Shown one piece after another: positions 9,029 to 47,068 of a stretch of DNA of 64,000 bases; position 1 is the first letter of the stretch, and each line of letters begins with the position of its first letter. Origin of the DNA: an uncultured Chloroflexia bacterium (lineage in GTDB: Bacteria; Chloroflexota; Limnocylindria; Limnocylindrales; CSP1-4); the NCBI GenBank assembly GCA_963760735.1, contig CAVXEB010000007.1, forward strand, positions 149,600 to 213,599, in the 5' to 3' direction. The notes below the pieces were generated by a model. It did no database searches and had not been told where the DNA came from. It saw only the letters and a program-made list of their open reading frames with translations. The position numbers and the translations under genes are program-made.

Positions 9029-10486
9029 ATGTCGTTCGTCCGATCCGCCGCCGTTGTCGTCCTCGCGCTCGTCATCGCCGCCTGCTCGTCGATCACGAGC
9101 ACGGGCGCGGGCGGGCAGCTGGAGGGGACGCAGTGGGTGCTGCGGGCGTACGCCGACGCCGGGTCGCTGAAGATCGTCCCGGAGACCGTCTTCGCGGACG
9201 CGAAGTTCCAGGGCCACCAGGTCACCGGCCAGTCCGGCTGCAACACCTATCGCGCGCTCTATCAGTCGAGCGGTCGGACCCTCCTGGTCTCCCAGGCCTC
9301 GGCGACGCTCATGGCGTGTGACGAGGCGTCGATGACGTTCGAGCAGACCTATCTGGCGCTGCTCCAGAGCAGCCGGTTCTACGGGGTCGAGCGCGACACC
9401 CTGACGATCTACGACGGGATCGGGTCGGCGAGCCTCGTCTTCGACGCGGCTCCGAAGAATCCGCTGCTCGGACGCTGGGACGTCGACTCGTACCTGGTCC
9501 CGCCGTCCACGATCACGGCGGTGCTTCCCGACACGACGGTCGACGTCGTCTTCGGAATCGCCAGCGTCGGCGGGTCGGCCGGCTGCAACGACTTCACCGG
9601 CACCTACGGGACGAACGGGAACGTCGTGCGGATCAGCCAGCTCGCGACCACCCGGAAGGCGTGCCCCGAGGACGTGATGAACCAGGAGACGGCGTTCCTC
9701 GCCGCCCTCCAGGGCGCGGCGCTCATCGACTACCGGGGTAACCAGGTCAACCTCCAGGACCTCCGGCGCGACCTCACCGTGGCGCTGATCCGGCCGGCCG
9801 CGGAGGCCGCGGCGTCGGCGAGCCCGTCCGCGAGCCAGGCGCCCGCGGCCAGCGCGACGGCGCGCCCGAGTGCCTCCCCGACTCCGTCCCCGACGCCGAC
9901 GAAGGCGCCGACGCCGAAGCCCAGCGCGACCCCGACGAAGGCGCCGACGCCGTCGGTCCCGGTCGAGCCGTCGGCCCGGCCGTCGGCCTCGATCCCGGTC
10001 ATCCCGCCGACGACGACCTGCAACCTGGCCGCCGGCACCGCCACTGTCGCCACGATCGTCTACCCGGGCGACTGGTTTACCGTGACGACGCCGGCCAATC
10101 TCGCGTGCCAGTACTTCTCCCCGGATCCGATCACGGTCCCGTCGGACCCGTCGACGCTCCAGACCCCGGTCATGGCGTCCGTCTCGTCGACGCCGTACGC
10201 CGACGCGATCGCCGCGGCGACGGACCCGACGAACTGGACCGTGACGCAGACCGGCAGCGCGAACTCGCCCAGCGGGACGACCTTCACGTGCATCGACGCG
10301 ACCGCCGTGACGGACGCGTCGGGGATCGCGGTGGGACAATCGCGTGGCTCGTGCCTGATCGACGTCGGGGCCGCGGGCACCGTGATCATCCAGACGATCG
10401 GCTCGGCCACCGACCCGACGTATGAGGCCTACAGCGCGGTGGTCCTGCTGATGACGCTGCAGTCGACGTTCACGCCGACCGCCTGA
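9029..10486 (+). CDS. lipoprotein with two HslJ-like META (DUF306) domains and Pro/Thr-rich linker
   Basis: Start MSFVRSAAVVVLALVIAACSS (lipobox IAAC). Two copies of the motif LEGTQWVL...GQSGCNTY...L.ACDE...E..YL.AL...Y....D.L....G. The same domain family occurs in the 45778-46884 gene. Confidence 0.75.
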   Translation: MSFVRSAAVVVLALVIAACSSITSTGAGGQLEGTQWVLRAYADAGSLKIVPETVFADAKFQGHQVTGQSGCNTYRALYQSSGRTLLVSQASATLMACDEASMTFEQTYLALLQSSRFYGVERDTLTIYDGIGSASLVFDAAPKNPLLGRWDVDSYLVPPSTITAVLPDTTVDVVFGIASVGGSAGCNDFTGTYGTNGNVVRISQLATTRKACPEDVMNQETAFLAALQGAALIDYRGNQVNLQDLRRDLTVALIRPAAEAAASASPSASQAPAASATARPSASPTPSPTPTKAPTPKPSATPTKAPTPSVPVEPSARPSASIPVIPPTTTCNLAAGTATVATIVYPGDWFTVTTPANLACQYFSPDPITVPSDPSTLQTPVMASVSSTPYADAIAAATDPTNWTVTQTGSANSPSGTTFTCIDATAVTDASGIAVGQSRGSCLIDVGAAGTVIIQTIGSATDPTYEAYSAVVLLMTLQSTFTPTA

Positions 10487-10604: not shown

Positions 10605-13600
10605 GTGACTCCACCGCACCACCGCCCGACCGCACACGCCCGGACATCGCGCGTTCACCTCATGGCGTTCCTCCAGATGTTCCTGGTCGTCGCCACGCTC
10701 GTCGCCCCGGTTTCGGGGATGGCGGCCGATTCGAGTTCCTCCGGCGGTACGCCGTCCTCGGCCGAGCCGACGAGCCAGCCCGAGCCGGATCCGTCGAGCT
10801 CGCCGACGCCTACGCCGACGCCCACCCCGGAGCCGGTCGCCGAGCCATCACCGGAGCCGAATCCGTCCGCCGAATCCCCCTCGCCCGCGGCCGAGTCACC
10901 CGCACCGACACCCGAGACGCCGGCGCCCACCGCCGAGCCGACGGTCGCGCCGACCGACGCGCCGACCGTGGCACCGGCCGCCACCCGCGACTTCGTCGTC
11001 ACGTTCGCCCCCGGGACGAACGCAACCGCGCGCGCGAGCATCCTCGCGGACGCCGGCGCCGAGGTCGTCGACACGATCGCGCCACTGAGGATGGCCGTCA
11101 TCCGCGTCGTGACCGGCTCGTCCGTCGTCGCGACCCTGCAGGATCGGACCGAAGTCGTCCGCGTGGAGCCCGACCGCGTCCGGGAGGCCGAGGCGGCACC
11201 GGACGATCCCGGCTATGCCGACCAGTGGTCACTCGGCCGGATCGGCTGGGACCGGGTCCACGACACGCTCGATCCCACGGGTTCCGTCGTCGTCGCCGTC
11301 CTCGACACCGGCGTCGACGCGGAGCATTCGGATCTCGCCGGACGGCTCGTCTCGGGCGTCTCGCTCGTTCCCGGCGGGGATCCGATGGCGGACCCGAACG
11401 GCCACGGCACGGCGATGGCCGGCATCATCGCCGCCGTCACCGACAACGGCGAGGGCATCGCGGGGATCGGCTGGTCCGGCGTGAAGGTCATGCCCGTCAC
11501 CGTCCTCGGTGTCGACGGGCTCGGCCAGGACAGCGACATCATCGAGGGCATCGTCTGGGCGGTGGACCACGGCGCGAGCGTCGTCAACCTCTCGTTCAGC
11601 AACCCTGGCTACAGTGCCGCCCTCCAGGCCGCCGTCGACTACGCCTGGGATCACGATGTCGTCGTCGTCGCGGCGACCGGCAACGACGGCTCGAGCGCGC
11701 CGACCTACCCGGCCGGCGATCGCGGCGTCGTCGGGGTCTCGAACACGAACCGGGCCGATGAGCTCGACGGCTCCTCGAACCACGGAGCTGACACGTTCCT
11801 CGGCGCGCCGGGGACCGACATCGCGACGCTCCTCGCGGGCGGCGGCACGACGTCCGTCAACGGAACGTCCGCGTCGTCCGCCGAGGTCGCGGCGTCGGCG
11901 GCGCTGCTCCGGGCGATCGACCCGGCGGCCTCGAACGCGGTGATCGTCGGGCGGCTGGCGCGGAGCGCCGCCGACGTCGGCACGCGGTCCGAGACGGGCA
12001 ACGGCCGGCTCGACCTCGCGCGTGCCGCGGCCGACCATGGTTCCGCCGGTGTGAAGCCGCTCGGCGCGGCGCCGACCGGCAGCGGTGGGCCGTTCGTCGG
12101 GCCGTACGTCGCGGCGGCGGCAACGGTCCAGGCGACAACGACCCTGAACGGCTCCGTCGGGAGCATCAGCGTCGCTCCGGGCGCCTCCATCACGCTCGTG
12201 ATGTTCGTGAACACGAACGGCGCGTCGCCGGCCAACAACTGGTTCTCGTCCCGCTGGGCGCTCGCGACCTCCGCGCCGCTGCCCGGCGCGATGACCTGCG
12301 TCGATCACGCCAACCACGTCGGTGGCGGCGCCTACTCGGAGACGATGACGATCACCGCGCCTGCGGCAGCGGGGACGTACAACCTCTACCTCTACGCCTA
12401 CAACGGCGACGCCTGCGGAGCGGGCCAGAGCGCCCTGTTCACGCGCGCGAACGCGCTCGACAACGTCGCTCCGACCGTCACGATCAACCAGGCGGTCGGC
12501 CAGCTCGACCCGACGAACGGGGCCACGATCACGTTCACGGTCGTCTTCAGCGAGCCGGTCGTCGGCTTCGCCACCGGCGACGTGTCGTTCGCCGGCAGCA
12601 CGGTCCCGGGGACCCTCGTCGGGACCGTCTCGGGTGCCGGCCCGACGTACACCGTCGCGGTCACCGGGATGACCGGCTCGGGAACCGTCGTCGCGTCCCT
12701 CGCCGCCGGCGTCGCGGCCGATCCCGCGGGCAACGCCAACGCCGCCTCGACCTCGACCGACAACACCGTCACCCGCGACGTCGTCGTCCCGACGGTCACG
12801 ATCAACCAGGCGGTCGGCCAGGTCGACCCGACGAACACCAGCCCGATCCTCTTCACCGTCGTCTTCAGCGAGCCGGTCACCGGCTTCATCACCGGCGACG
12901 TGACGTTCGCCGGCACGGCCGGCGGGGCGAAGGTCGGGACCGTCTCGGGCTCGGGTGCGAACTACACCGTCAGCGTCACCGGGATGACGACGTCCGGCAC
13001 GGTCATCGCCTCGATCGCGGCCAGCCGGGCGATCGATCTCGCGGGCAACAACAACACCGCCTCGAGCTCGACCGACAACAGCGTCACGTGGGACGTCACG
13101 GCTCCGACCGTGACGATCAACCAGGCGGTCGGCCAGGTCGACCCGACGAACACCAGCCCGATCACCTACACGGTCGTCTTCAGCGAGCCGGTCACCGGCT
13201 TCGCGACGGGCGACGTGACGTTCACCGGCACCGCCGGCGGGACGAAGGTCGGCGCGGTCAGCGGCGGTCCGACAACCTACACCGTCAGCGTCACCGGGAT
13301 GACGACGCCCGGCACGGTCATCACCTCGATCGCGGCCGGTGTCGCGACCGACCTGTCCGGCAACGCCAACGCGGTCTCGACCTCGGCCGACAACAGCGTC
13401 ACCTGGGACAACGTCGCGCCGACCGTCACGATCAACCAGGCGGTCGGCCAGCTCGACCCGACGAACGGGGCCACGATCACGTTCACGGTCGTCTTCAGCG
13501 AGCCGGTCGTCGGCTTCGCCACCGGCGACGTGTCGTTCGCCGGCAGCACGGTCCCGGGGACCCTCGTCGGGACCGTCTCGGGTGCCGGCCCGACGTACAC

Positions 13601-16600
13601 CGTCGCGGTCACCGGGATGACCGGCTCGGGAACCGTCGTCGCGTCCCTCGCCGCCGGCGTCGCGGCCGATCCCGCGGGCAACGCCAACGCCGCCTCGACC
13701 TCGACCGACAACACCGTCACCCGCGACGTCGTCGTCCCGACGGTCACGATCAACCAGGCGGTCGGCCAGGTCGACCCGACGAACACCAGCCCGATCCTCT
13801 TCACCGTCGTCTTCAGCGAGCCGGTCACCGGCTTCATCACCGGCGACGTGACGTTCGCCGGCACGGCCGGCGGGGCGAAGGTCGGGACCGTCTCGGGCTC
13901 GGGTGCGAACTACACCGTCAGCGTCACCGGGATGACGACGTCCGGCACGGTCATCGCCTCGATCGCGGCCAGCCGGGCGATCGATCTCGCGGGCAACAAC
14001 AACGCCGCCTCGAGCTCGACCGACAACAGCGTCACGTGGGACGTCACGGCTCCGACCGTGACGATCAACCAGGCGGTCGGCCAGGTCGACCCGACGAACA
14101 CCAGCCCGATCACCTACACGGTCGTCTTCAGCGAGCCGGTCACCGGCTTCGCGACGGGCGACGTGACGTTCACCGGCACCGCCGGCGGGACGAAGGTCGG
14201 CGCGGTCAGCGGCGGTCCGACAACCTACACCGTCAGCGTCACCGGGATGACGACGCCCGGCACGGTCATCACCTCGATCGCGGCCGGTGTCGCGACCGAC
14301 CTGTCCGGCAACGCCAACGCGGTCTCGACCTCGGCCGACAACAGCGTCACCTGGGACAACGTCGCTCCGACCGTCACGATCAACCAGGCGGTCGGCCAGC
14401 TCGACCCGACGAACGGGGCCACGATCACGTTCACGGTCGTCTTCAGCGAGCCGGTCGTGGGCTTCGCCACCGGCGACGTGTCGTTCGCCGGCAGCACGGT
14501 CCCGGGGACCCTCGTCGGGACCGTCTCGGGTGCCGGCCCGACGTACACCGTCGCGGTCACCGGGATGACCGGCTCGGGAACCGTCGTCGCGTCCCTCGCC
14601 GCCGGCGTCGCGGCCGATCCCGCGGGCAACGCCAACGCCGCCTCGACCTCGACCGACAACACCGTCACCCGCGATGTGACGCCGCCCACCGCGACCATCG
14701 ACCTGCAGGCCGGTTCGGACACGGGCGCCTCGAGCACGGACGACATCACGAACGCAACCACCCTCGTCTTCGACGTCACGTTCAGCGAGTCGGTGACCGG
14801 CCTCCTCGCCAATGACTTCTCCAACGTCGGGACCGCCACCACCTGCGCCTTCGGGGCTCCGACCGGCGCCGGTACGACCTACACCGTCACCGTGACCGGA
14901 TGCTCGCAGGGCACCGTGATCGTGCGGATCCGGGTCAACGCGGTCACGGATGTCGTGGGCAACAACAACGCGGTGATCAACGGCCCGACCGTCACCATCG
15001 ACCGGACCGGACCCACGGTCACGATCAACCAGGCGGTCGGCCAGGTCGACCCGACGAACGCCAGCCCGATCCTCTACACGGTCGTCTTCAGCGAGCCGGT
15101 CACCGGCTTCGCCACGGGCGACGTGTCGTTCACCGGCAGCACCTCGGGCGGGGCGAAGGTCGGGACCGTCTCGGGCGGTCCGACGACGTACACCGTCAGC
15201 GTCACCGGGATGACGACGCCGGGGACGGTGATCGCGACGATCGGGGCCGGCGTCGCGACCGATCTCAGCGGCAACGCCAACGTCGTCTCGACCTCGACCG
15301 ACAACACGGTCGCCTGGGACGCCACGCCTCCGACCGTCACGATCAACCAGGCGGTGGGCCAGGTCGACCCGACGAACGCCAGCCCGATCACGTTTACCGT
15401 GGTCTTCAGCGAGACGGTCACCGGCTTCGCCACCGGCGACGTCAGCTTCACCGGCAGCACGGTCGGCGGGACCCTCGTGGGGACCGTCTCCGGAGGTCCG
15501 ACCACGTACACCGTCGCGGTCACCGGGATGACCGGCTCAGGGACCGTCGTCGCCTCGCTCGGCGCCGGCGTGGCGACGGACGCGACCGGCAACGGCAACG
15601 TCACCTCGACCTCGACCGACAACACGGTCACATTCGACAACGTCGCCCCGACCGTCACGATCAACCAGGCCGTCGGCCAGGCTGATCCCACGAACACCAG
15701 CCCGATCCTCTACACCGTCGTGTTCAGCGAACCGGTCATCGGCTTCGCGACCGGCGACGTGACCTTTGCCGGCAGCACGTCCGGCGGGACGAAGGTCGAC
15801 ACGGTCAGCGGATCGGGCGCGAACTACACCGTGACCGTCACCGGGATGACGACCTCCGGCAGCCTGATTGCCGCGATCGCCGCCAGCCAGGCGACCGATC
15901 TCGCAGGCAACAACAACGCCGCGTCGACATCGTCCGACAACACCGTCACGTGGGACGTCACCGCCCCGACCGTCACGATCAACCAGGCGGTCGGTCAGGT
16001 CGACCCGACGAACGCGAGCCCGATCACGTTCACAGTCGTGTTCAGCGAGCCGGTCACCGGCTTCGCGACCGGCGACGTCACGTTCACGGGGACGGCCGGC
16101 GGGACGAAGGTCGGCACGGTCAGCGGGTCCGGCGCGAACTACACCGTGACCGTCACAGGGATGACGATCTCCGGCACCGTGATCGCCACGATCGCGGTAG
16201 GCGTCGCGGCCGACCTCGCGGGCAACGGCAACACGGCCTCGACGTCGACCGACAACACCGTGACCTGGAACCGCGCCACCCATCTCGGGTTCGGCCAGGG
16301 GCCGACGGACGCGATCTATCGCTCGACGATCAGCCCGGCCGTGACCGTCCTCGTCCTCGACGACAACGGCTTCGTCGTGACCGAGAGCTCTGCATCTGTC
16401 TCGCTGACCCTGGCCCCGGCGGGTCCGACCCTCGGCGGGACGGTCACCGTCGCGGCCGTCAATGGCATCGCGACGTTCAACGACCTGACCGTCGACCAGG
16501 TCGGGACCTACAGCCTGAATGCGGCCAGCGCCGGCTTGATCGGGACGTCGAGCGCGACGTTTTCGATCCTGCCCGCCCCGCTGACGATCACGGCGACCGA

Positions 16601-19010
16601 CCAGTTCAAGATCTACGGGCAGACGCTGGCGTTCGCGGGAACGGAATTCACGGTGAGCGGGCTGCTCGGACCCGACTCGGTCGGGGGCGTCACCCTCACC
16701 AGCCCCGGGTCGCCCGCCACGGCGTCGGTGGTCGGCAGCCCGTACCCGATCACGCCGTCGAATGCCGTCGGCGCCGGCCTCGCGAACTACACGATCACCT
16801 ACCTGAACGGTCAGCTCACGGTGCTGCCGGCGGTCCTCGTCGTCATCGCGAACGATCGGACCAAGACGTACGGCCAGAGCGTGGTCTTCGCAGGCACCGA
16901 GTTCTCCGTCTTCGGTCTGGTCAACACCGACACGGTCACGAGCGTCACGTTGTCCAGCCCGGGCACGGTCGCCACGGCGACCGTCGCCGGGAGTCCCTAC
17001 CCGATCACGCCGTCGTCGGCGATCGGCAGCGGCCTCGCGAACTACGTGATCTTCTACGGCCCCGGCCAGCTCACCGTGACGCCGGCGCCGCTGGCGATCA
17101 CCGCGAACGACCGGACCAAGACCTACGGCCAGACGGTCGTCTTCGCCGGGACGGAGTTCTCCACGAGCGGCCTGCTCAACGCCGATACGGTCACGAGCGT
17201 CAGCCTGGCCAGCTCGGGCGCGGTCGCCACGGCGACCGTCGCCGGGAGTCCCTACCCGATCACCCCGTCGGCGGCGGTCGGCAGCGGGCTGTCCAATTAC
17301 GCGATCACCTACCTCGACGGCGAGATGGGTGTGACCGCCGCGCCTCTCGCGATCACCGCCGATGACCGGACGAAGACCTACGGCCAGACGGTCACGTTCG
17401 CCGGGACGGAGTTCTCCACGAGCGGCCTGCTCAACGCCGATACGGTCACGAGCGTCAGCCTGGCCAGCCCCGGAGCGGTCGACACCGCGACGGTCGTAGG
17501 CAGCCCGTACCCGATCACGCCGTCGGCGGCGGTCGGGACAGGCCTCGGCAACTACACGATCACCTACGTCGACGGCGAGCTGACCGTCACGCCGGCCACC
17601 GCCGTCATCGTCGTGACGGGCTTCTCCGTCACCTATGACGCGCTGCCACACACGGCGACCGGCTCTGTGACAGGCGTGTTCGGCGAGAATCTCTCTGCGG
17701 GTCTCGACCTGTCGGCGACAACCCGGACGAACGTCGGCCTCTACAGCGATCCATGGACGTTCACGGATCCCGCGGGCAACTACCTGGCCGACAGCGGGAC
17801 CGTGGACAGCGACATCAGCCAGGCCGCGTTGACGATCACCGCCGACGACGCGACGAAGACCTACGGCCAGGCGGTCACCTTCGCCGGGACGGAGTTCTCC
17901 ACGAGCGGGCTGCTCGGGACCGACACGGTCACGAGTGTCACCCTCGCGAGCCCCGGTGCGAGCCCGACGGCCACCGTCGCCGGGAGCCCGTACCCGATCA
18001 CCCCATCGGCGGCGGTCGGCAGCGGCCTTGCGAACTACGCGATCAGCTACGTCGACGGTGCGCTCACGGTCATGCAGGCCGCGCTCACCGTCACCGCCGC
18101 TGACCAGACGAAGCCGTTCGGGGTCACGTTCGTCTTCGCCGGCACCGAGTTCTCGACCGTCGGCCTCGTGAACGGCGACACGGTCGACTCCGCGACCCTG
18201 ACGAGCGCCGGCTCACCGGCCCTCGCCGCACCGACCACGTATCCGATCCTCCTCTCGAACGCGGTCGGGACGGGCCTGGCCAACTACGCGATCAGCTACG
18301 TGGCGGGCACCCTGACGGTCGGCAACACGGCGCCGGTCATCGGCGATGCCAGCGTCACGACGGACGCGATGACCGCGGTCAGCGGCGCGGTCACCGTGAC
18401 CGATCCGGACACTGGCCAGACGGTGACATTGACAATCGCGACCGGACCGGCCAACGGCACGGCCACCGTGGCCGGTGACGGCTCGTTCGTCTACACGCCG
18501 ACCGGCACGTTCACCGGCCGCGACTCGTTCTCGATCCAGGGCTGCGACGACGCCCTGATCCCGGCCTGCGACACTGGCACCGTCGACGTGGAGATCATCC
18601 CGGTCGCCGTCGCCGACACCGGCGTCACGACCGAGGGCAAGACCATCGAGGTCGATGTCGAGGCCAACGACATCGGGGACGCCGGACCTCTCCAGATCGT
18701 CGGGCAGCCGGCGCACGGGACGGCAACGATCGGCTCGATCATCTACACGCCCGATGCCGGCTTCAGCGGCGTCGACCAGGTCGTCTACCGGATTTGCAGC
18801 CCGAACGACCAGACCGTCTGCGACGACGGGACCCTGACGATCACCGTCAACGCCGCCCTACCGGACACCGACGCCGGCGTGATCCTGTCGACCCCGCTCG
18901 GACCGGTCCGGTCCGGGAGCGCGTGGCTCGCCGGGATCCTGGCCCTGCTGTTCGCGGTGGGTGCGGGGGCCGCGGTCGCCATCGGTCGCCGCCGCCGGGA
19001 CGTCGACTGA
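10605..19010 (+). CDS. giant (2801 aa) secreted cell-surface subtilisin-like serine protease with Ig-like, MBG-like and cadherin-like repeat domains and C-terminal membrane anchor
   Basis: Single uninterrupted ORF. Signal peptide; PT-rich linker; I9-like propeptide; S8 catalytic domain (DTGVD, NGHGTAMAG, GTSASSAEVAA). About 12 Ig-like domains of ~105 aa (VTINQAVGQxDPTN...FSEPVTGF...GTVSG.G..YTV.VTGMT..GTV...). 6 MBG-like repeats (TA.D.TKTYGQ..VFAGTEFS..GL...DTV.SV.L.S.G...A.V.GSPYPITPS.AVG.GL.NY.I.Y..G.LTV) plus one variant MBG-like domain. 2 cadherin-like domains. C-terminal LPDTDAG + hydrophobic segment + RRRRD. Confidence 0.85.
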   Translation: MTPPHHRPTAHARTSRVHLMAFLQMFLVVATLVAPVSGMAADSSSSGGTPSSAEPTSQPEPDPSSSPTPTPTPTPEPVAEPSPEPNPSAESPSPAAESPAPTPETPAPTAEPTVAPTDAPTVAPAATRDFVVTFAPGTNATARASILADAGAEVVDTIAPLRMAVIRVVTGSSVVATLQDRTEVVRVEPDRVREAEAAPDDPGYADQWSLGRIGWDRVHDTLDPTGSVVVAVLDTGVDAEHSDLAGRLVSGVSLVPGGDPMADPNGHGTAMAGIIAAVTDNGEGIAGIGWSGVKVMPVTVLGVDGLGQDSDIIEGIVWAVDHGASVVNLSFSNPGYSAALQAAVDYAWDHDVVVVAATGNDGSSAPTYPAGDRGVVGVSNTNRADELDGSSNHGADTFLGAPGTDIATLLAGGGTTSVNGTSASSAEVAASAALLRAIDPAASNAVIVGRLARSAADVGTRSETGNGRLDLARAAADHGSAGVKPLGAAPTGSGGPFVGPYVAAAATVQATTTLNGSVGSISVAPGASITLVMFVNTNGASPANNWFSSRWALATSAPLPGAMTCVDHANHVGGGAYSETMTITAPAAAGTYNLYLYAYNGDACGAGQSALFTRANALDNVAPTVTINQAVGQLDPTNGATITFTVVFSEPVVGFATGDVSFAGSTVPGTLVGTVSGAGPTYTVAVTGMTGSGTVVASLAAGVAADPAGNANAASTSTDNTVTRDVVVPTVTINQAVGQVDPTNTSPILFTVVFSEPVTGFITGDVTFAGTAGGAKVGTVSGSGANYTVSVTGMTTSGTVIASIAASRAIDLAGNNNTASSSTDNSVTWDVTAPTVTINQAVGQVDPTNTSPITYTVVFSEPVTGFATGDVTFTGTAGGTKVGAVSGGPTTYTVSVTGMTTPGTVITSIAAGVATDLSGNANAVSTSADNSVTWDNVAPTVTINQAVGQLDPTNGATITFTVVFSEPVVGFATGDVSFAGSTVPGTLVGTVSGAGPTYTVAVTGMTGSGTVVASLAAGVAADPAGNANAASTSTDNTVTRDVVVPTVTINQAVGQVDPTNTSPILFTVVFSEPVTGFITGDVTFAGTAGGAKVGTVSGSGANYTVSVTGMTTSGTVIASIAASRAIDLAGNNNAASSSTDNSVTWDVTAPTVTINQAVGQVDPTNTSPITYTVVFSEPVTGFATGDVTFTGTAGGTKVGAVSGGPTTYTVSVTGMTTPGTVITSIAAGVATDLSGNANAVSTSADNSVTWDNVAPTVTINQAVGQLDPTNGATITFTVVFSEPVVGFATGDVSFAGSTVPGTLVGTVSGAGPTYTVAVTGMTGSGTVVASLAAGVAADPAGNANAASTSTDNTVTRDVTPPTATIDLQAGSDTGASSTDDITNATTLVFDVTFSESVTGLLANDFSNVGTATTCAFGAPTGAGTTYTVTVTGCSQGTVIVRIRVNAVTDVVGNNNAVINGPTVTIDRTGPTVTINQAVGQVDPTNASPILYTVVFSEPVTGFATGDVSFTGSTSGGAKVGTVSGGPTTYTVSVTGMTTPGTVIATIGAGVATDLSGNANVVSTSTDNTVAWDATPPTVTINQAVGQVDPTNASPITFTVVFSETVTGFATGDVSFTGSTVGGTLVGTVSGGPTTYTVAVTGMTGSGTVVASLGAGVATDATGNGNVTSTSTDNTVTFDNVAPTVTINQAVGQADPTNTSPILYTVVFSEPVIGFATGDVTFAGSTSGGTKVDTVSGSGANYTVTVTGMTTSGSLIAAIAASQATDLAGNNNAASTSSDNTVTWDVTAPTVTINQAVGQVDPTNASPITFTVVFSEPVTGFATGDVTFTGTAGGTKVGTVSGSGANYTVTVTGMTISGTVIATIAVGVAADLAGNGNTASTSTDNTVTWNRATHLGFGQGPTDAIYRSTISPAVTVLVLDDNGFVVTESSASVSLTLAPAGPTLGGTVTVAAVNGIATFNDLTVDQVGTYSLNAASAGLIGTSSATFSILPAPLTITATDQFKIYGQTLAFAGTEFTVSGLLGPDSVGGVTLTSPGSPATASVVGSPYPITPSNAVGAGLANYTITYLNGQLTVLPAVLVVIANDRTKTYGQSVVFAGTEFSVFGLVNTDTVTSVTLSSPGTVATATVAGSPYPITPSSAIGSGLANYVIFYGPGQLTVTPAPLAITANDRTKTYGQTVVFAGTEFSTSGLLNADTVTSVSLASSGAVATATVAGSPYPITPSAAVGSGLSNYAITYLDGEMGVTAAPLAITADDRTKTYGQTVTFAGTEFSTSGLLNADTVTSVSLASPGAVDTATVVGSPYPITPSAAVGTGLGNYTITYVDGELTVTPATAVIVVTGFSVTYDALPHTATGSVTGVFGENLSAGLDLSATTRTNVGLYSDPWTFTDPAGNYLADSGTVDSDISQAALTITADDATKTYGQAVTFAGTEFSTSGLLGTDTVTSVTLASPGASPTATVAGSPYPITPSAAVGSGLANYAISYVDGALTVMQAALTVTAADQTKPFGVTFVFAGTEFSTVGLVNGDTVDSATLTSAGSPALAAPTTYPILLSNAVGTGLANYAISYVAGTLTVGNTAPVIGDASVTTDAMTAVSGAVTVTDPDTGQTVTLTIATGPANGTATVAGDGSFVYTPTGTFTGRDSFSIQGCDDALIPACDTGTVDVEIIPVAVADTGVTTEGKTIEVDVEANDIGDAGPLQIVGQPAHGTATIGSIIYTPDAGFSGVDQVVYRICSPNDQTVCDDGTLTITVNAALPDTDAGVILSTPLGPVRSGSAWLAGILALLFAVGAGAAVAIGRRRRDVD
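11217..12015 (+). other. S8 (subtilase) catalytic domain within giant ORF; Asp ~11307, His ~11403, Ser ~11868
   Basis: Motifs VAVLDTGVD / DPNGHGTAMAGIIAA / VNGTSASSAEVAASAALL in canonical D-H-S order and spacing. Confidence 0.8.
12460..14674 (+). repeat. near-identical 948-bp tandem repeat (2.3 copies) inside giant protease gene; each unit encodes three Ig-like domains (316 aa)
   Basis: ggcggtcggccagctcgacccgacgaacgggg recurs at 12491 and 13439 (period 948). Antisense ORFs 12398-12916, 13277-13864 and 14225-14842 translate identically. Only about 1-2 nt differences between units (e.g. NNNTASSS vs NNNAASSS). Third unit diverges after ~14674. Confidence 0.9.
16560..18330 (+). other. array of 6 MBG-like repeats plus one variant domain within giant ORF
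   Basis: Repeated ~85-aa units containing ...TKTYGQ.V.FAGTEFST.GLL..DTVTSV.L.SPG...ATV.GSPYPITPS.AVG.GLANY.I.Y..G.LTV. Partially identical at nucleotide level (e.g. ~17140 vs ~17400). Confidence 0.65.
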
Positions 19011-34808: not shown

Positions 34809-35795
34809 CTTCCCAAGCTGAATGTCGCGGGTTCGAACCCCAGTCCTCCCGCTCCTCTTCCCTCGCCTGACGTTCGCCTGAGCGCGACCGCAGTCAGGGG
34901 AGCGGCTCGTAGACGAGCGTCCCCCCGTCCTCGAGGGTGATGGTCAGGGCGTTCGACGCAATCGCGTAGCTCGCGCTGTTCGTCAGGGCCAGCACGTACA
35001 GGTCGCCGTGGGACCCGTCACCGCAGGGCACGATCGCCGACGGCCCGGGCACGATCGACAGGCCGCCCGCCGCCGTCGCCGTCCACTGGCCGACGAGGGT
35101 GTTGCAGTCGGCGATCGCGCTGAACTGCCCGCCCGCCTTGAACGAGACGGTGTACTTCGAGCGCTCGGCGGCCGGGATGACGCCCTGATGCACGGGGTCG
35201 CGCGTGGTGATGCTGACGAGCTGCCAGTTCGTCCCGACCAGGTCGGCGCCCGGGCTCGGGGCGGGTGTCGGGGACGGCGTCGGCTTGGGCGTCGGGGTCG
35301 GTGTCGGGGTCGGGGTCGGGGTCGGTGTGGGCGTCGGTGACTTCGTGGGTGCCTCGGTCGGCTCCGTCGTCGGCGAGGCGGACGCGCTCGGCGGGGCCGA
35401 AGCGGTCACCGTGGGCGTCGGGCTCGCGGTCGGCGTGGCCGTCGGGGTCGGGCTCGGTGACGCGCTCGGTGACGGGCTCGCGCTGGCTGACGCGGAAGGC
35501 GACGAGCTGGCGCTGGGTGACGCCGAGGGACTCGGGACCACCGCCGTGCCGGAGCTCGCCACGAACGTGCCGGTCCCACCGTCGGCTGTCGTGAGCGTCA
35601 GCTGACCGCCGGCGATGACCCAGGTCGTCACATTCGCGAGCTCGTGGGCGAAGATGTCCCCGTACGACCCGTCCGGGCAGGCCACGAGCGTGCTTGGCCC
35701 GGGCGTGATCGTGATGCCGTCCTTGCCGCGCAGGCTGTAGGTCCCGGCCAGGGCATTGCAGTCCGCCCTGGCGCTGAACGTGCCGTCGGTGGCGA
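34809..35795. repeat. 985-bp direct repeat, copy A (100% identical to 45693-46679); begins with tRNA-Gly 3'-half remnant 34809-34855
   Basis: Identity starts exactly at cttcccaag (anticodon loop of tRNA-Gly CCC) and ends at ...tgccgtcggtggcga. ORFs in all frames translate identically in both copies. Offset 10884 bp. Confidence 0.9.
34894..35795 (-). pseudogene. 5'-truncated duplicate of the META-domain gene at 45778-46884
   Basis: C-terminal ~300 codons are identical to 45778-46677. The upstream part is replaced by unrelated sequence. It lacks the signal/TM segment and first META half, so it is probably non-functional. Confidence 0.7.
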
Positions 35796-35995
35796 GGCCC
35801 CGACCCCGCGATCCGCGGGTGGCGCAACCGCGCAACGTGTTCGCGACCCTTGACACGGTTGCACACGAGTGCATACACTCGTGTGCCGCAACGCGTGTTC
35901 GTTCCTGTAGCGGACCACGCGACGTCGTCGGCCCCGAGGCGTGGCGGTCAGTCGTTGCCGATGGACCGGTTGTCCATCGGCGCGAGGAGCGTCGG

Positions 35996-37501
35996 ATGAA
36001 GGTCCTGGCCGACCGCGAGGTCTGGCTCGTCACCGGCAGCCAAGCGCTCTACGGTGACGACGCCCTGCGCACCGTGGCCGAACACGCCATGGAGATCGGC
36101 AGTGCGCTCGACGCCGCCGATGTGATCCCGGTCCGGATCGTGACCAAACCCGTCGTCACGACCACGGAACAGATCCGGGGGGTCCTGCTCGAGGCGACCG
36201 CAGCGGCCCGTTGCATCGGTGTCATCGCCTGGATGCACACCTTCTCGCCCGCCCGGATGTGGATCCCGGGCCTGATCGCCCTGCAGAAGCCCCTCCTGCA
36301 CCTGCACACGCAGCACAACCGCGATCTCCCCTGGGCCGAGATCGACATGGATTTCATGAACCTCAACCAGTCGGCGCACGGCGATCGCGAGTTCGGCTAC
36401 ATCGAGACCCGCCTGCGATGCAGCCGGACCACCGTGGTCGGCCATTGGCGCGACCCCGAGGTCATCGATCGGATCGCCGCCTGGACCCGCGCCGCAAGCG
36501 GCGTCCACGAGCTCCAGCGTCTCCGACTCGCCCGCTTCGGCGACAACATGCGCCAGGTCGCGGTCACCGAAGGTGACAAGGTCGAGGCCCAGATCCGGCT
36601 CGGCGTCCGGGTCGACGGCTACGGCATCGGCGAGCTCGTCGCCGCGGTCAGGGCGGCTTCCGACGGGGACGTGGACCAGCTGGTCGACGAGTACGACGCG
36701 ACCTATCACCTGGCGCCAGCACTGCGCAGCGGCGGCGAACGTCGTTCGGCGCTCCGCGAGGCCGCCCGGATCGAGATCGGTCTTCGGGCGTTCCTCGAGA
36801 CCGGAGGCTTCGAAGCCTTCACGGACACCTTCGAGGATCTCGGCGACCTCGTTCAGCTCCCCGGACTCGCCGTCCAGCGCCTCATGGCCGACGGCTACGG
36901 CTTCGGTGCCGAGGGCGACTGGAAGACTGCCCTCCTCGTCCGGGCGATGAAGGTCATGGCGACCGGCCTGGCCGGCGGGACGTCGTTCATGGAGGACTAC
37001 ACCTACCACCTGGCGCCCGACGGACCGATGGTCCTGGGCGCCCATATGCTCGAGGTCTGCCCGAGCATCGCGGATGGGACCCCCTCGTGCGAGATCCATC
37101 CCCTGTCGATCGGCAATCGGTCGGACCCCGTCCGGCTCGTGTTCATGGCCCGGCCCGGGCCGGCCGTCGTCGTCGGCCTCCTCGATCTTGGTGATCGCTT
37201 CCGACTCGTCCTCAACGAGGTCGAGGTGGTCAGGCCTCCCGAGGACCTGCCGCGCCTGCCGGTCGCCCGCGCCCTCTGGAAGCCGCTTCCGGGGCTGAAA
37301 GGGGCGGCCGAGGCATGGCTGCTCGCGGGCGGCCCGCACCACACGAGCCTGAGCACCGCATTGAGCCGCACCCACCTCGAGGATTTCGCCGAGATGGTCG
37401 GCATCGAGCTCATCACCATCGGCCTGGGGACCGCGGCCACCGACATCAAGAAGGAGCTGCGCTGGAACCAGGCGTACTACCAGCTCGCCCGGGGGCCGTA
37501 G
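35996..37501 (+). CDS. araA: L-arabinose isomerase
   Basis: Start [20 protein letters not shown] (ATG 35996, GAGGAG 9 nt upstream). AraA-specific motifs [22 protein letters not shown], full ~500-aa length. Confidence 0.95.
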
Positions 37502-45692: not shown

Positions 45693-46679
45693 CTTCCCAA
45701 GCTGAATGTCGCGGGTTCGAACCCCAGTCCTCCCGCTCCTCTTCCCTCGCCTGACGTTCGCCTGAGCGCGACCGCAGTCAGGGGAGCGGCTCGTAGACGA
45801 GCGTCCCCCCGTCCTCGAGGGTGATGGTCAGGGCGTTCGACGCAATCGCGTAGCTCGCGCTGTTCGTCAGGGCCAGCACGTACAGGTCGCCGTGGGACCC
45901 GTCACCGCAGGGCACGATCGCCGACGGCCCGGGCACGATCGACAGGCCGCCCGCCGCCGTCGCCGTCCACTGGCCGACGAGGGTGTTGCAGTCGGCGATC
46001 GCGCTGAACTGCCCGCCCGCCTTGAACGAGACGGTGTACTTCGAGCGCTCGGCGGCCGGGATGACGCCCTGATGCACGGGGTCGCGCGTGGTGATGCTGA
46101 CGAGCTGCCAGTTCGTCCCGACCAGGTCGGCGCCCGGGCTCGGGGCGGGTGTCGGGGACGGCGTCGGCTTGGGCGTCGGGGTCGGTGTCGGGGTCGGGGT
46201 CGGGGTCGGTGTGGGCGTCGGTGACTTCGTGGGTGCCTCGGTCGGCTCCGTCGTCGGCGAGGCGGACGCGCTCGGCGGGGCCGAAGCGGTCACCGTGGGC
46301 GTCGGGCTCGCGGTCGGCGTGGCCGTCGGGGTCGGGCTCGGTGACGCGCTCGGTGACGGGCTCGCGCTGGCTGACGCGGAAGGCGACGAGCTGGCGCTGG
46401 GTGACGCCGAGGGACTCGGGACCACCGCCGTGCCGGAGCTCGCCACGAACGTGCCGGTCCCACCGTCGGCTGTCGTGAGCGTCAGCTGACCGCCGGCGAT
46501 GACCCAGGTCGTCACATTCGCGAGCTCGTGGGCGAAGATGTCCCCGTACGACCCGTCCGGGCAGGCCACGAGCGTGCTTGGCCCGGGCGTGATCGTGATG
46601 CCGTCCTTGCCGCGCAGGCTGTAGGTCCCGGCCAGGGCATTGCAGTCCGCCCTGGCGCTGAACGTGCCGTCGGTGGCGA
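45693..46679. repeat. 985-bp direct repeat, copy B (intact copy); begins with tRNA-Gly 3'-half remnant 45693-45739
   Basis: See copy A. Here the repeat is continuous with the intact 5' end of the META-domain gene. Confidence 0.9.
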
Positions 46680-46884
46680 ACTTGATCGTGTAGCGCGTCT
46701 GCTCTTCGGCCGGGAATACCCCCTGGAACGCCGGGGTCTGGCCGGTGATCGCGGCCAGCTGCCAGGTCGAGCCGGTCAGGGTGCCGGTGTCCGGGCCGCG
46801 GCCCAGGATGGCGAAGAGGGCGAGCCCGCCGATGACGACGGCGGCGACGACGCCGATGACGACGACCACGGGGCGTTGCTGCAT
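45778..46884 (-). CDS. membrane-anchored protein with two HslJ-like META (DUF306) domains and Pro/Thr-rich linker
   Basis: Start MQQRPVVVVIGVVAAVVIGGLALFAILG (N-terminal TM anchor; ATG 46884 with GGAGAGGGA upstream). Two META-like halves (TWQLAAI..., ...NWQLVSI...DCNTLVGQW...). Paralogous to the 9029-10486 protein. Confidence 0.75.
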   Translation of the reverse strand: MQQRPVVVVIGVVAAVVIGGLALFAILGRGPDTGTLTGSTWQLAAITGQTPAFQGVFPAEEQTRYTIKFATDGTFSARADCNALAGTYSLRGKDGITITPGPSTLVACPDGSYGDIFAHELANVTTWVIAGGQLTLTTADGGTGTFVASSGTAVVPSPSASPSASSSPSASASASPSPSASPSPTPTATPTASPTPTVTASAPPSASASPTTEPTEAPTKSPTPTPTPTPTPTPTPTPKPTPSPTPAPSPGADLVGTNWQLVSITTRDPVHQGVIPAAERSKYTVSFKAGGQFSAIADCNTLVGQWTATAAGGLSIVPGPSAIVPCGDGSHGDLYVLALTNSASYAIASNALTITLEDGGTLVYEPLP

Positions 46885-47068
46885 CAGTCCCTCTCCATCG
46901 GGTGGACCATCGAAGGAGGCATCGACTCGGCGACAGCTGATCGTCGCCATGCCGGTTCGTCCGAGTCCGGCGTGCACACTGCGGCCCGCGCCGCGGTCTC
47001 GTCAAGGCGGACGGCACGCCTCTAACTGAGGCCCACTCCCCTCACCCGACCCGGGCGGCCGTGGCGCG

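What the first reader, a model, noticed from the sequence alone, without database searches (positions are those of the whole stretch)
10605..19010. 2801-aa surface-anchored subtilisin with Ig-like/MBG-like/cadherin-like repeat stalk - an unusual giant protease-adhesin architecture
One uninterrupted ORF encodes, in order: a signal peptide, a PT-rich linker, an I9-like propeptide, an S8 catalytic domain with intact D/H/S motifs, ~12 Ig-like domains, a distinct beta-sandwich domain, 6 MBG-like repeats plus one variant domain, 2 cadherin-like domains, and a C-terminal anchor. MBG-like domains are usually found in adhesins, and Ig stalks are typical of S-layer or cell-envelope proteinases. Combining a catalytically intact subtilase with such a long spacer suggests a protease displayed far from the cell surface, for example for nutrient-polymer degradation or host/biofilm interaction. 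The gene follows a lipoprotein gene and precedes a LacI-regulated transport locus.
Basis: partly seen in the sequence, partly recalled or inferred. Interest (0 to 1): 0.75.

Follow-up and report, generated by a model that had tools for sequence, protein, structure and literature searches.

The report
Giant membrane-tethered subtilisin on a stalk
One real 8.4-kb gene encodes a subtilisin-type protease, apparently active, at the far end of a stalk of about 23 domains tied to the cell membrane; it is an uncharacterised but not rare design in soil Chloroflexota and Actinomycetota.

Summary
ORF 10605-19010 (+) is intact. It encodes, in order:
- a signal peptide and a Pro/Ser/Thr-rich spacer
- a subtilisin-type prodomain
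- an S8 catalytic domain with D234/H267/N360/S422
- a beta-sandwich
- 12 Ig-like units (11 Big_12, one Big_13-like)
- an invasin-D3-like Ig domain
- 6 MBG_2 units plus one variant
- 2 Big_9 (cadherin-like) domains
- a C-terminal transmembrane helix followed by RRRR.

An AlphaFold model of the head (pLDDT 86.8) best matches unprocessed pro-subtilisins, fervidolysin and Tk-SP. Colinear orthologs in independent assemblies argue against a chimera. Only the copy number of a near-identical 948-bp three-domain block is uncertain.

"Unusual" is overstated. About 100 of the 120 best database hits are S8 proteins of at least 1,551 aa with other repeat stalks, mostly from soil Chloroflexota (Limnocylindria-like) and Actinomycetota MAGs. 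The exact combination occurs in roughly a dozen protein clusters.

It works like a cell-envelope proteinase but is not a member of that family: no PA domain, no Fn3-type domains, no LPXTG. It is not a mycosin either.

Two extras stand out. Stalk blocks have duplicated independently in several orthologs. A conserved P-x-T-D / TPxGPV element lies just outside the membrane anchor.

Verdict: new variant of a known kind, moderate interest.

The parts
10605..10724 (+). Signal peptide, residues 1-40. Arg-containing n-region, hydrophobic core LMAFLQMFLVVATLVAPV, and a likely cleavage site SGMA|AD. The database start is the ATG at 10662.
   Evidence: Kyte-Doolittle maximum 2.12 at residues 15-41. The conserved pattern R-x-R..hydrophobic..AP.SG.A|ADP is present in orthologs. 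DNA read. No dedicated signal-peptide predictor was available.
10725..10979 (+). Low-complexity Pro/Ser/Thr/Ala/Glu spacer (residues 41-125) between the signal peptide and the prodomain.
   Evidence: Composition P31 S18 T14 A14 E11 %. An equivalent spacer is present in orthologs P0002-P0006 and P0011.
10980..11219 (+). Subtilisin-type prodomain (residues 126-205) with a beta-alpha-beta-beta-alpha-beta fold.
   Evidence: Fervidolysin_NPro-like, 26.5 bits, E 8e-6. pLDDT 94-97 in the model. Best Foldseek matches are unprocessed pro-subtilisin E 3whi (TM 0.91 on the target, 360 columns) and pro-Tk-subtilisin.
11220..12086 (+). S8 catalytic domain (residues 206-494). D234 = 11304-11306, H267 = 11403-11405, oxyanion N360 = 11682-11684, S422 = 11868-11870.
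   Evidence: Pfam E 2e-35. PDB phmmer: AK.1 protease E 1.6e-39, thermitase and subtilisins. Catalytic residues conserved. Model pLDDT mostly above 90.
12117..12464 (+). Post-catalytic beta-sandwich (residues 505-620) after the conserved linker GPFVGPYVAA. It has a conserved Cys pair, C565/C604.
   Evidence: No significant Pfam match. Seven to eight strands, pLDDT about 73-91. Same domain order as fervidolysin 1r6v and Tk-SP 3afg. Both Cys are invariant in orthologs. Replaced by a different domain in P0010 and P0012.
12471..16280 (+). Twelve tandem Ig-like units of 105-109 aa (residues 623-1892). Eleven are Big_12; unit 8 (14685-15011) is Big_13-like.
   Evidence: Tandem Repeats Finder: period 315, 12.0 copies. 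Pfam Big_12, 12 stretches. Unit 8: Big_13 E 4e-7. Unit identities.
12458..14675 (+). Near-identical 948-bp block (three Ig units) present about 2.3 times inside the Ig array.
   Evidence: Two mismatches between copies 1 and 2. Five mismatches in the whole self-shifted span. The block is in frame and starts about 13 bases before a domain boundary.
16281..16574 (+). Single Ig-like domain (residues 1893-1990) joining the Ig array to the MBG array.
   Evidence: Weak Invasin_D3 match, E 0.004, below the cut-off. Conserved at the same position in all orthologs.
16575..18332 (+). MBG array: four MBG_2 (YGX-type) units (residues 1991-2330), one variant unit with no Pfam match (2331-2406, 17595-17822), and two more MBG_2 units (2407-2576).
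   Evidence: Pfam MBG_2, 6 stretches, E 6e-46. Tandem repeat of period 255. Units are 56-86% identical to each other. Variant unit has no Pfam hit. Orthologs carry 'YDG' at the matching position.
18333..18848 (+). Two Big_9 / cadherin-like domains (residues 2577-2748), each with a Cys pair.
   Evidence: Big_9 E 3e-13 and 7e-12; Cadherin_4 and Cadherin_5 weaker. Cys at 2647/2655 and 2731/2739.
18849..19007 (+). C-terminal tail. P-D-T-D = 18861-18872, TPLGPV = 18891-18908, transmembrane helix A2773-G2794 = 18921-18986, RRRR = 18987-18998. Stop codon at 19008-19010.
   Evidence: Kyte-Doolittle maximum 2.46. P, T and D of the motif are invariant in 8 orthologs. The same layout is seen in L004, L005, L007, L008, L036 and L050. 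No LPXTG motif; sortase-signal models reach only E 0.11-0.45.

Best explanation
This is one gene for a 275-kDa, very acidic (pI about 4) type I membrane protein.

Proposed steps:
1. The Sec signal peptide exports the chain.
2. The C-terminal helix, with RRRR on the cytoplasmic side, holds it in the cytoplasmic membrane.
3. The N-terminal pro-subtilase folds with help from its prodomain and then cleaves the prodomain off. This also removes the Pro/Ser/Thr spacer.
4. The result is an active thermitase-like S8 protease with an accessory beta-sandwich. It sits at the outer end of about 23 beta-rich domains. That would span very roughly 70-100 nm if extended, assuming 3-5 nm per domain.

The most likely role is cell-bound extracellular proteolysis at a distance. 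The enzyme could reach through or beyond the envelope to particulate or polymeric protein while the products stay close to the cell. This is what lactococcal PrtP does on a shorter spacer.

Shown here: the gene, the domains and their order, the catalytic residues, the pro-subtilase fold, the two hydrophobic ends, the conservation, and the family distribution.

Inferred: export, topology, autoprocessing, extension of the stalk, the substrate and the physiological role.
For: - Intact ORF with uniform coding signal.
- Domains.
- Catalytic D/H/N/S aligned to subtilisins and conserved in relatives.
- Head model pLDDT 86.8, pTM 0.76.
- Best structural matches are unautoprocessed pro-subtilisin E, pro-Tk-subtilisin, fervidolysin and ProN-Tk-SP.
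- Only the N- and C-terminal segments are strongly hydrophobic; net charge about -143, with 157 Asp against 16 Lys.
- Colinear orthologs at 54-70% identity in independent assemblies: P0002 with 98% coverage, P0003-P0009, and L004 and L007 intact.
- Several genomes carry two or more paralogous heads, for example MFD05513.bin.2.235 and MFD02134.bin.2.11.
Against: - There are no expression, activity or localisation data.
- No peptide-uptake genes lie in the window; the neighbours are sugar ABC, L-arabinose and META-lipoprotein genes. The neighbourhood is not conserved, so context supports no particular role.
- The motif around the catalytic Ser is GTSASSAEVA. It lacks the Pro and His of the classical GTSMASPHVAG, so specificity or kinetics may differ.
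- The conserved juxtamembrane motif could mean the protein is cleaved or transferred rather than staying membrane-anchored.
- The envelope of the source organism is unknown.
Confidence: 0.6

Rival explanations
1. Adhesin first. The MBG_2 and Big_9 units bind a glycan or a surface. The S8 head then serves locally, remodelling matrix or biofilm or trimming other surface proteins (a sheddase or maturase), rather than feeding the cell.
For: MBG_2, Big_9 and Big_12 occur in many large surface or adhesin-like proteins without a protease, for example P0015, P0024, P0029, P0037 and P0100. The head is combined with many different stalks among relatives, as if the stalk sets the target.
Against: The putative binding units lie nearest the membrane and the protease lies at the tip. 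In typical adhesins the ligand-binding module is distal. No binding function is documented for these Pfam families in the papers searched. No solved structure matches the stalk by sequence.
Confidence: 0.2
2. Processed or released form. The conserved P-x-T-D and TPxGPV elements 15-20 residues outside the membrane helix are a cleavage or sorting site. The mature protein would then be transferred to the wall or S-layer, or shed, as with sortase or exosortase substrates.
For: P, T and D are invariant in 8 orthologs although the flanks vary. The layout of motif, helix and Arg cluster mimics sorting signals: the only non-family hit of the tail profile is a Firmicutes-type PKTGD sortase signal (P0254). 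In related loci a DUF11 protein (L013, L014), a cupredoxin-like protein (L037) and another S8 giant (L064) also end with P-x-T-D ... helix ... RRR.
Against: An exhaustive profile search of 1.84 billion representatives found only fragments of this same family plus that single hit. The motif is not LPXTG. It lies unusually far from the helix. P-x-T-D can arise by chance in Pro/Thr-rich linkers. No sortase-like gene lies next to the gene in three contexts.
Confidence: 0.15
3. Assembly artefact: the ORF is a chimera or mis-expanded repeat assembly rather than a single real gene.
For: Repeats of 948 bp with 99.8% identity are hard to assemble. Consensus polishing can also homogenise copies. Many orthologous loci in the same type of long-read MAGs are broken by frameshifts (tails of P0005, P0011 and P0012).
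Against: The same domain order from signal peptide to tail is found in independent assemblies and samples: L001 from ERZ25039520, L002 from ERZ25039547, and L004 and L007. There is one frame with uniform GC3 and no internal stop over 8.4 kb. The unique head, the junction domains and the tail are all single-copy.
Confidence: 0.04

Closest known systems
Cell-envelope proteinases of Gram-positive bacteria (lactocepin PrtP, streptococcal C5a peptidase ScpA); comparison from established knowledge
   Same: Pre-pro-S8 head at the N-terminus, beta-rich spacer domains, a C-terminal anchor, and the protease displayed outside the cell on its own polypeptide.
   Different: No PA domain inserted in the catalytic domain. 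No Fn3-type A-domain. No LPXTG or wall-spanning region. The stalk is far longer and is built of Big_12, MBG_2 and Big_9. The anchor is a transmembrane helix.
Fervidolysin (1r6v) and Tk-SP (3afg)
   Same: Prodomain, S8 domain and C-terminal beta-sandwich in the same order. Fervidolysin_NPro-like prodomain. Structural matches at E about 5e-24.
   Different: Those enzymes end after one or two sandwich domains and are secreted. Sequence identity is only 19-23%.
Thermitase, AK.1 protease and subtilisins (MEROPS S8A)
   Same: Best sequence matches for the catalytic domain, E 1e-39 to 1e-36. Identity is 34-36% in the structural alignments, rmsd about 1.5 A.
   Different: Small secreted enzymes of about 270-280 aa. 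The classical GTSMASPHVAG motif is GTSASSAEVA here.
STABLE protease on the tetrabrachion stalk of Staphylothermus marinus (from my own knowledge, not checked here)
   Same: A subtilisin-family protease held tens of nanometres from the membrane on a long stalk.
   Different: There the protease binds non-covalently to a separate coiled-coil S-layer protein in an archaeon. Here the head and the Ig-like stalk are one polypeptide.
Giant RTX adhesins with Ig-like extender arrays (MpIBP and LapA type; from my own knowledge for the named proteins)
   Same: Long tandem arrays of acidic Ig-like units. Big_12 co-occurs with RTX repeats (PF00353) in hits P0024 and P0029.
   Different: No RTX or type I secretion signal. 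It has a Sec signal peptide and a C-terminal helix. The distal module is an enzyme.
Type VII secretion mycosins (TIGR03921)
   Same: An S8 protease with a C-terminal membrane anchor. The profile matches positions 14-336 of 353.
   Different: 154 bits against a cut-off of 278.75. About 2,280 residues separate the S8 domain from the anchor. No ESX-type genes were seen among the annotated neighbours.

Membership tests
Subtilase family S8 (Pfam PF00082, MEROPS S8A) | Score above the curated threshold for the catalytic-domain model. | tested here: met
   122.8 bits against a cut-off of 21.8, E 2.2e-35. PDB subtilases at E 1e-39.
Subtilase family S8 (Pfam PF00082, MEROPS S8A) | Catalytic triad in the order Asp-His-Ser, plus the oxyanion-hole Asn. 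| tested here: met
   D234 (VLDTGVD), H267 (NGHGTAMAG), N360 (ATGNDG) and S422 (NGTSASS) align to subtilisin residues and are conserved in relatives.
Subtilase family S8 (Pfam PF00082, MEROPS S8A) | Subtilisin alpha/beta fold with an N-terminal prodomain (zymogen form). | tested here: met
   Model pLDDT 86.8. TM-score 0.91 on the target to pro-subtilisin E 3whi, and rmsd 1.5 A to mature subtilisins.
Subtilase family S8 (Pfam PF00082, MEROPS S8A) | Proteolytic activity and autoprocessing. | not testable with these tools
   Needs an enzyme assay.
Cell-envelope proteinases (PrtP / ScpA type) | PA (protease-associated) domain inserted in the catalytic domain. | tested here: not met
   No PA family among the Pfam hits. 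The catalytic domain aligns to 269-280-aa subtilisins without a large insert.
Cell-envelope proteinases (PrtP / ScpA type) | Fn3-like A-domain after the catalytic domain. | tested here: not met
   No Fn3-type family. The post-catalytic domain has no Pfam match.
Cell-envelope proteinases (PrtP / ScpA type) | LPXTG sortase signal or a wall-binding region at the C-terminus. | tested here: not met
   The tail reads LPDTDAG, then 16 residues, then the helix and RRRR. Orthologs have PETDT, PQTDA or PPTDA. Sortase-signal models reach only E 0.11-0.45, on the helix and Arg part.
Type VII secretion mycosin (TIGR03921) | Score above the equivalog cut-off. | tested here: not met
   154 bits against 278.75.
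Type VII secretion mycosin (TIGR03921) | Located in an ESX / type VII secretion locus. | tested here: not met
   The window ORFs scanned against Pfam are META lipoproteins, a sigma factor, LacI regulators, sugar ABC transporters, ara genes and others. Ortholog contexts have none either.
Giant RTX adhesins | C-terminal RTX nonapeptide repeats and a type I secretion signal. | tested here: not met
   No HemolysinCabind match. The protein has a Sec-type N-terminus and a C-terminal helix.
The S8-Big_12-MBG_2-Big_9 ortholog group (unnamed) | Colinear head, GPFVGPYVAA linker, Cys-pair sandwich, Ig array, junction Ig, MBG array, two Big_9 domains, then P-x-T-D ... helix ... RRRR tail. | tested here: met
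   P0002 at 62% identity over 98% of the query. P0003-P0009 and L004 and L007 have the same order.

The most novel reading that the evidence does not exclude
The gene belongs to a modular, fast-evolving system in soil Chloroflexota: one conserved pro-subtilase head on exchangeable stalks. Reach would be tuned by recurrent duplication of three-domain blocks. Attachment would depend on a previously undescribed juxtamembrane sorting or processing signal (P-x-T-D, then TPxGPV, then helix, then RRRR) shared with other surface proteins of the lineage.
Probability: 0.12. Interest if true: 0.6.

Novelty: new variant of a known kind. Interest (0 to 1): 0.38.

Why it matters
Limnocylindria-like Chloroflexota and related Actinomycetota are abundant, mostly uncultured soil bacteria. 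How they reach polymeric nitrogen is poorly known.

A family of proteases held tens of nanometres from the cell on their own stalk would be a concrete mechanism for privatised protein degradation in soil. Several paralogs occur per genome, and stalk lengths change quickly.

The family also offers a natural scaffold for enzyme display. The stalk domain families (Big_12, MBG_2) have no solved structure detectable by sequence, and the C-terminal element is conserved but unexplained.

It does not overturn anything: surface-anchored subtilases are a known idea.

Tried and rejected
- First structure job with 9 close orthologs: mean pLDDT 45, usable only for the prodomain. It was replaced by a 66-sequence alignment.
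- Foldseek against afdb50: the library was not available.
- Exact-sequence look-ups of P0001 and of an araD-like window protein, to name the source sample: nothing on record. The taxon is therefore inferred from relatives.
- Tail profile against 1.84 billion representatives, to test for a shared sorting signal: only family fragments plus one sortase-type protein. The sorting-signal idea was downgraded.
- Sortase-signal and other NCBIfam C-terminal models on the tail: not significant.
- PDB sequence searches with the Ig block and the MBG region: no match. The Big_9 region gave only weak hits, to a phage collar sheath protein and to protocadherin.
- Literature searches (MBG domain, subtilisin, giant proteins with Peptidase_S8, Limnocylindria with peptidase, Chloroflexi with sortase) found nothing on this architecture.
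- Promoter and terminator scan: nothing above chance.
- Mycosin reading: rejected on score and context.
- Conserved-operon reading: rejected, because neighbours differ between orthologs.
- Method caveat: both homolog searches returned only proteins between about 0.55 and 1.75 times the query length (1551-4862 aa, 312-876 aa). The length distribution of relatives cannot be read from them.
Full report
**1. Is it there?**

Yes. The window is about 70% G+C. ORF 10605..19010 on the + strand is 2801 codons long. It has the coding signature of the genome, GC3 0.94 overall and 0.89-0.98 in every 900-nt slice. The antisense and off-frame ORFs listed over it are the usual by-product of high G+C.

The same protein, started at Met20 (2782 aa), is already in NCBI and ENA on a 793,593-bp contig (P0001, 100% identity). 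The alternative start is the ATG at 10662. Orthologs carry Arg residues ahead of the hydrophobic core.

**2. Anatomy**

Pfam finds these families:

| Family | Stretches | E-value |
|---|---|---|
| Peptidase_S8 (227-467) | 1 | 2e-35 |
| Big_12 | 12 | 1e-83 |
| MBG_2 | 6 | 6e-46 |
| Big_9 | 2 | 1e-20 |

Segment scans add the following:
- A prodomain that passes the Fervidolysin_NPro-like threshold (26.5 bits). Inhibitor_I9 itself does not match (E 0.33).
- Ig unit 8 is Big_13-like.
- A junction Ig domain at 1893-1990 has a weak Invasin_D3 match.
- Neither the post-catalytic domain (505-620) nor the variant unit inside the MBG array (2331-2406) has a Pfam match.

The catalytic Asp234, His267 and Ser422 and the oxyanion Asn360 align with those of thermitase, AK.1 protease and subtilisins (E down to 1.6e-39). 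They are invariant in nine orthologs. In a 66-sequence alignment His and Ser are invariant and Asp and Asn are at least 90% conserved. One deviation is that the Ser motif reads GTSASSAEVA, without the Pro-His of GTSMASPHVAG.

A first AlphaFold run on nine sequences was poor. With 66 sequences the head (residues 126-630) gave pLDDT 86.8 and pTM 0.76. Its best matches are unautoprocessed pro-subtilisin E (TM 0.91 on the target), pro-Tk-subtilisin, fervidolysin and ProN-Tk-SP. The head is therefore a pro-subtilase zymogen followed by a beta-sandwich, the same order as in fervidolysin and Tk-SP.

Only two segments reach the hydrophobicity of a membrane helix (19-residue Kyte-Doolittle mean above 2): residues 15-41 and 2770-2796. 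The second is followed by RRRR. The protein is 275 kDa, pI about 4, with 157 Asp against 16 Lys. A Pro/Ser/Thr-rich spacer of about 85 residues sits, unusually, between the signal peptide and the prodomain. It is present in orthologs too.

**3. Real gene or chimera?**

Orthologs with the same order of parts occur in independent assemblies:
- P0002: 62% identity over 98% of the query, from ERZ25039520.
- P0007: from ERZ25039547.
- P0003, P0004, P0006 and P0009.
- Intact ORFs in L004 (2175 aa) and L007 (3426 aa).

They rule out a chimera of unrelated repeat genes.

What remains uncertain is repeat number. A 948-bp block of three Ig units is present about 2.3 times at 12458-14675, with only 2 mismatches between the first two copies.

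Orthologs show independent block duplications of their own:
- Exact runs of 962-971 nt at periods 945 and 963 in L001.
- An exact run of 1008 nt at period 738 in L001, inside the MBG array.
- An exact run of 1006 nt at period 963 in L002.

Duplicated units are 99-100% identical within a protein. They are only 75-90% identical to the best unit of any other ortholog. Stalk length therefore changes quickly and repeatedly in this family. Consensus polishing of long-read assemblies could exaggerate the identity.

Many orthologous loci in the related MAGs are broken by frameshifts. This makes the intact 8.4-kb frame here notable.

**4. Who has it?**

A scan of one genome per species returned 80 loci. 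Most are from 'uncultured Chloroflexia' MAGs with MFD names and from Candidatus Limnocylindrales. Others are from Actinomycetota (Gaiellaceae, Nocardioides, Marmoricola, Oryzobacter). The best match is 76% identical, so the source species itself is not a representative.

MFD MAGs come from deep Nanopore sequencing of Danish soils and sediments (PMC12313526). The window therefore most likely comes from a soil Chloroflexota of the Limnocylindria type. This is an inference.

Among the 120 best hits to the full protein, about 100 are S8 proteins of at least 1,551 aa. Their stalks are built from other repeats: Big_3_5, VCBS or Big_9 with cadherin-like, DUF11, PKD and autotransporter-type beta strands. 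The head alone finds 928 relatives at E below 1e-20, many of them partial or truncated. Some genomes hold two or more such loci.

The exact S8-Big_12-MBG_2-Big_9 combination is limited to roughly a dozen protein clusters. Both homolog searches appear to return only proteins within about 0.55-1.75 times the query length. Length statistics from them are therefore not meaningful.

**5. Context**

- Upstream, at 9029-10486, lies a lipoprotein (lipobox LVIAAC) with two META domains.
- Downstream lies a convergent LacI gene, then an Fe-ADH-like gene and a sugar-type ABC transporter.
- Orthologs sit among unrelated genes: P450, TetR and GGDEF in L001; MscS, PAS and sigma factor genes in L002.

The gene appears to stand alone. 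Its neighbours say nothing about function. No sortase-like, ESX or peptide-transport gene was seen in the annotated parts of the window.

**6. How it most likely works**

1. Export by Sec.
2. Retention by the C-terminal helix, with the Arg cluster inside the cell.
3. Prodomain-assisted folding and autocleavage.
4. An active S8 head at the far end of about 23 domains, very roughly 70-100 nm if extended.

The architecture and the topology logic come from the sequence. Export, processing, extension and substrate are inferences.

The simplest role is cell-bound proteolysis at a distance for nutrient acquisition. Rivals are:
- An adhesin-first or sheddase role.
- Processing or transfer at the conserved juxtamembrane element.
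- An assembly artefact, which is very unlikely.

**7. The tail**

Orthologs conserve P-x-T-D[T/A], then about 6 residues, then TP[LI]GPV, then 4-8 residues, then a 20-residue helix and RRRR. It is not LPXTG, and sortase-signal models do not match.

In related loci a DUF11 protein, a cupredoxin-like protein and another S8 giant end similarly. However, an exhaustive profile search found only fragments of this family plus one Firmicutes sortase-type tail. A lineage-wide sorting signal is therefore possible but weakly supported.

**8. Comparison with known systems**

It works like a cell-envelope proteinase (PrtP, ScpA) but fails their defining features: no PA insert, no Fn3-type domains and no LPXTG.

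The head resembles fervidolysin and Tk-SP in domain order, and thermitase and subtilisins in sequence. It is not a mycosin (154 bits against 278.75) and not an RTX adhesin.

The stalk domains have no solved relative detectable by sequence. No paper in the searchable library describes this architecture.

**9. Verdict**

- Novelty: a new variant of a known kind. It is a surface-anchored subtilase with an unusually long, fast-evolving Ig/MBG stalk and a non-canonical anchor. It belongs to a widespread but unstudied class.
- Interest is moderate.

Noticed in passing
window 34809-35795 and 45693-46679: A perfect 987-bp direct repeat, 10,884 bp apart. It covers the 3' parts of two META-domain lipoprotein-like genes on the minus strand. 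It brackets an L-arabinose cluster: araA, binding protein, ABC ATPase, permease, LacI, class II aldolase, FGGY kinase and an alpha/beta hydrolase. It may be a recent segmental duplication junction or an assembly artefact.
   Followed up: partly
window 9029-10486 (+), 34894-36033 (-), 45778-46977 (-): Three paralogous META-domain proteins lie in one 64-kb window. The first has a clear lipobox (LVIAAC), a Pro/Thr-rich linker and an extra C-terminal domain with no family match.
   Followed up: partly
L001 11881-13800 and 16011-17750; L002 12117-14090: Orthologs carry their own exact block duplications (periods 945, 963 and 738 nt), in the MBG array as well as the Ig array. They are independent of the 948-nt block in the window.
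   Followed up: yes
L003, L005, L008, L009, L012, L016, L036, L050, L069, L079, L080 (match starts at 10001): Many orthologous giant protease genes in long-read MAGs are interrupted by apparent frameshifts, with wrong-frame Arg/Asp/His-rich tails. Public protein sets therefore hold many truncated 'S8 family peptidase, partial' entries for what are probably giant genes.
   Followed up: partly
L013 3750-4595 (-), L014 8318-9367 (-), L037 18372-19601 (-), L064 12688-14787 (+): Unrelated surface proteins in related genomes (DUF11-type, cupredoxin-like, and an S8 with DUF11 repeats) also end with P-x-T-D, a spacer, a hydrophobic helix and RRR.
   Followed up: partly
window 10605 vs 10662: The public record starts the protein at the ATG at 10662. 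That removes the positively charged n-region which orthologs have before the hydrophobic core. The GTG at 10605 looks like the better start.
   Followed up: partly
window 57831-60341 (+): An 836-aa ORF with an N-terminal zinc-dependent phospholipase C domain (E 3e-9) and a long unassigned remainder.
   Followed up: no
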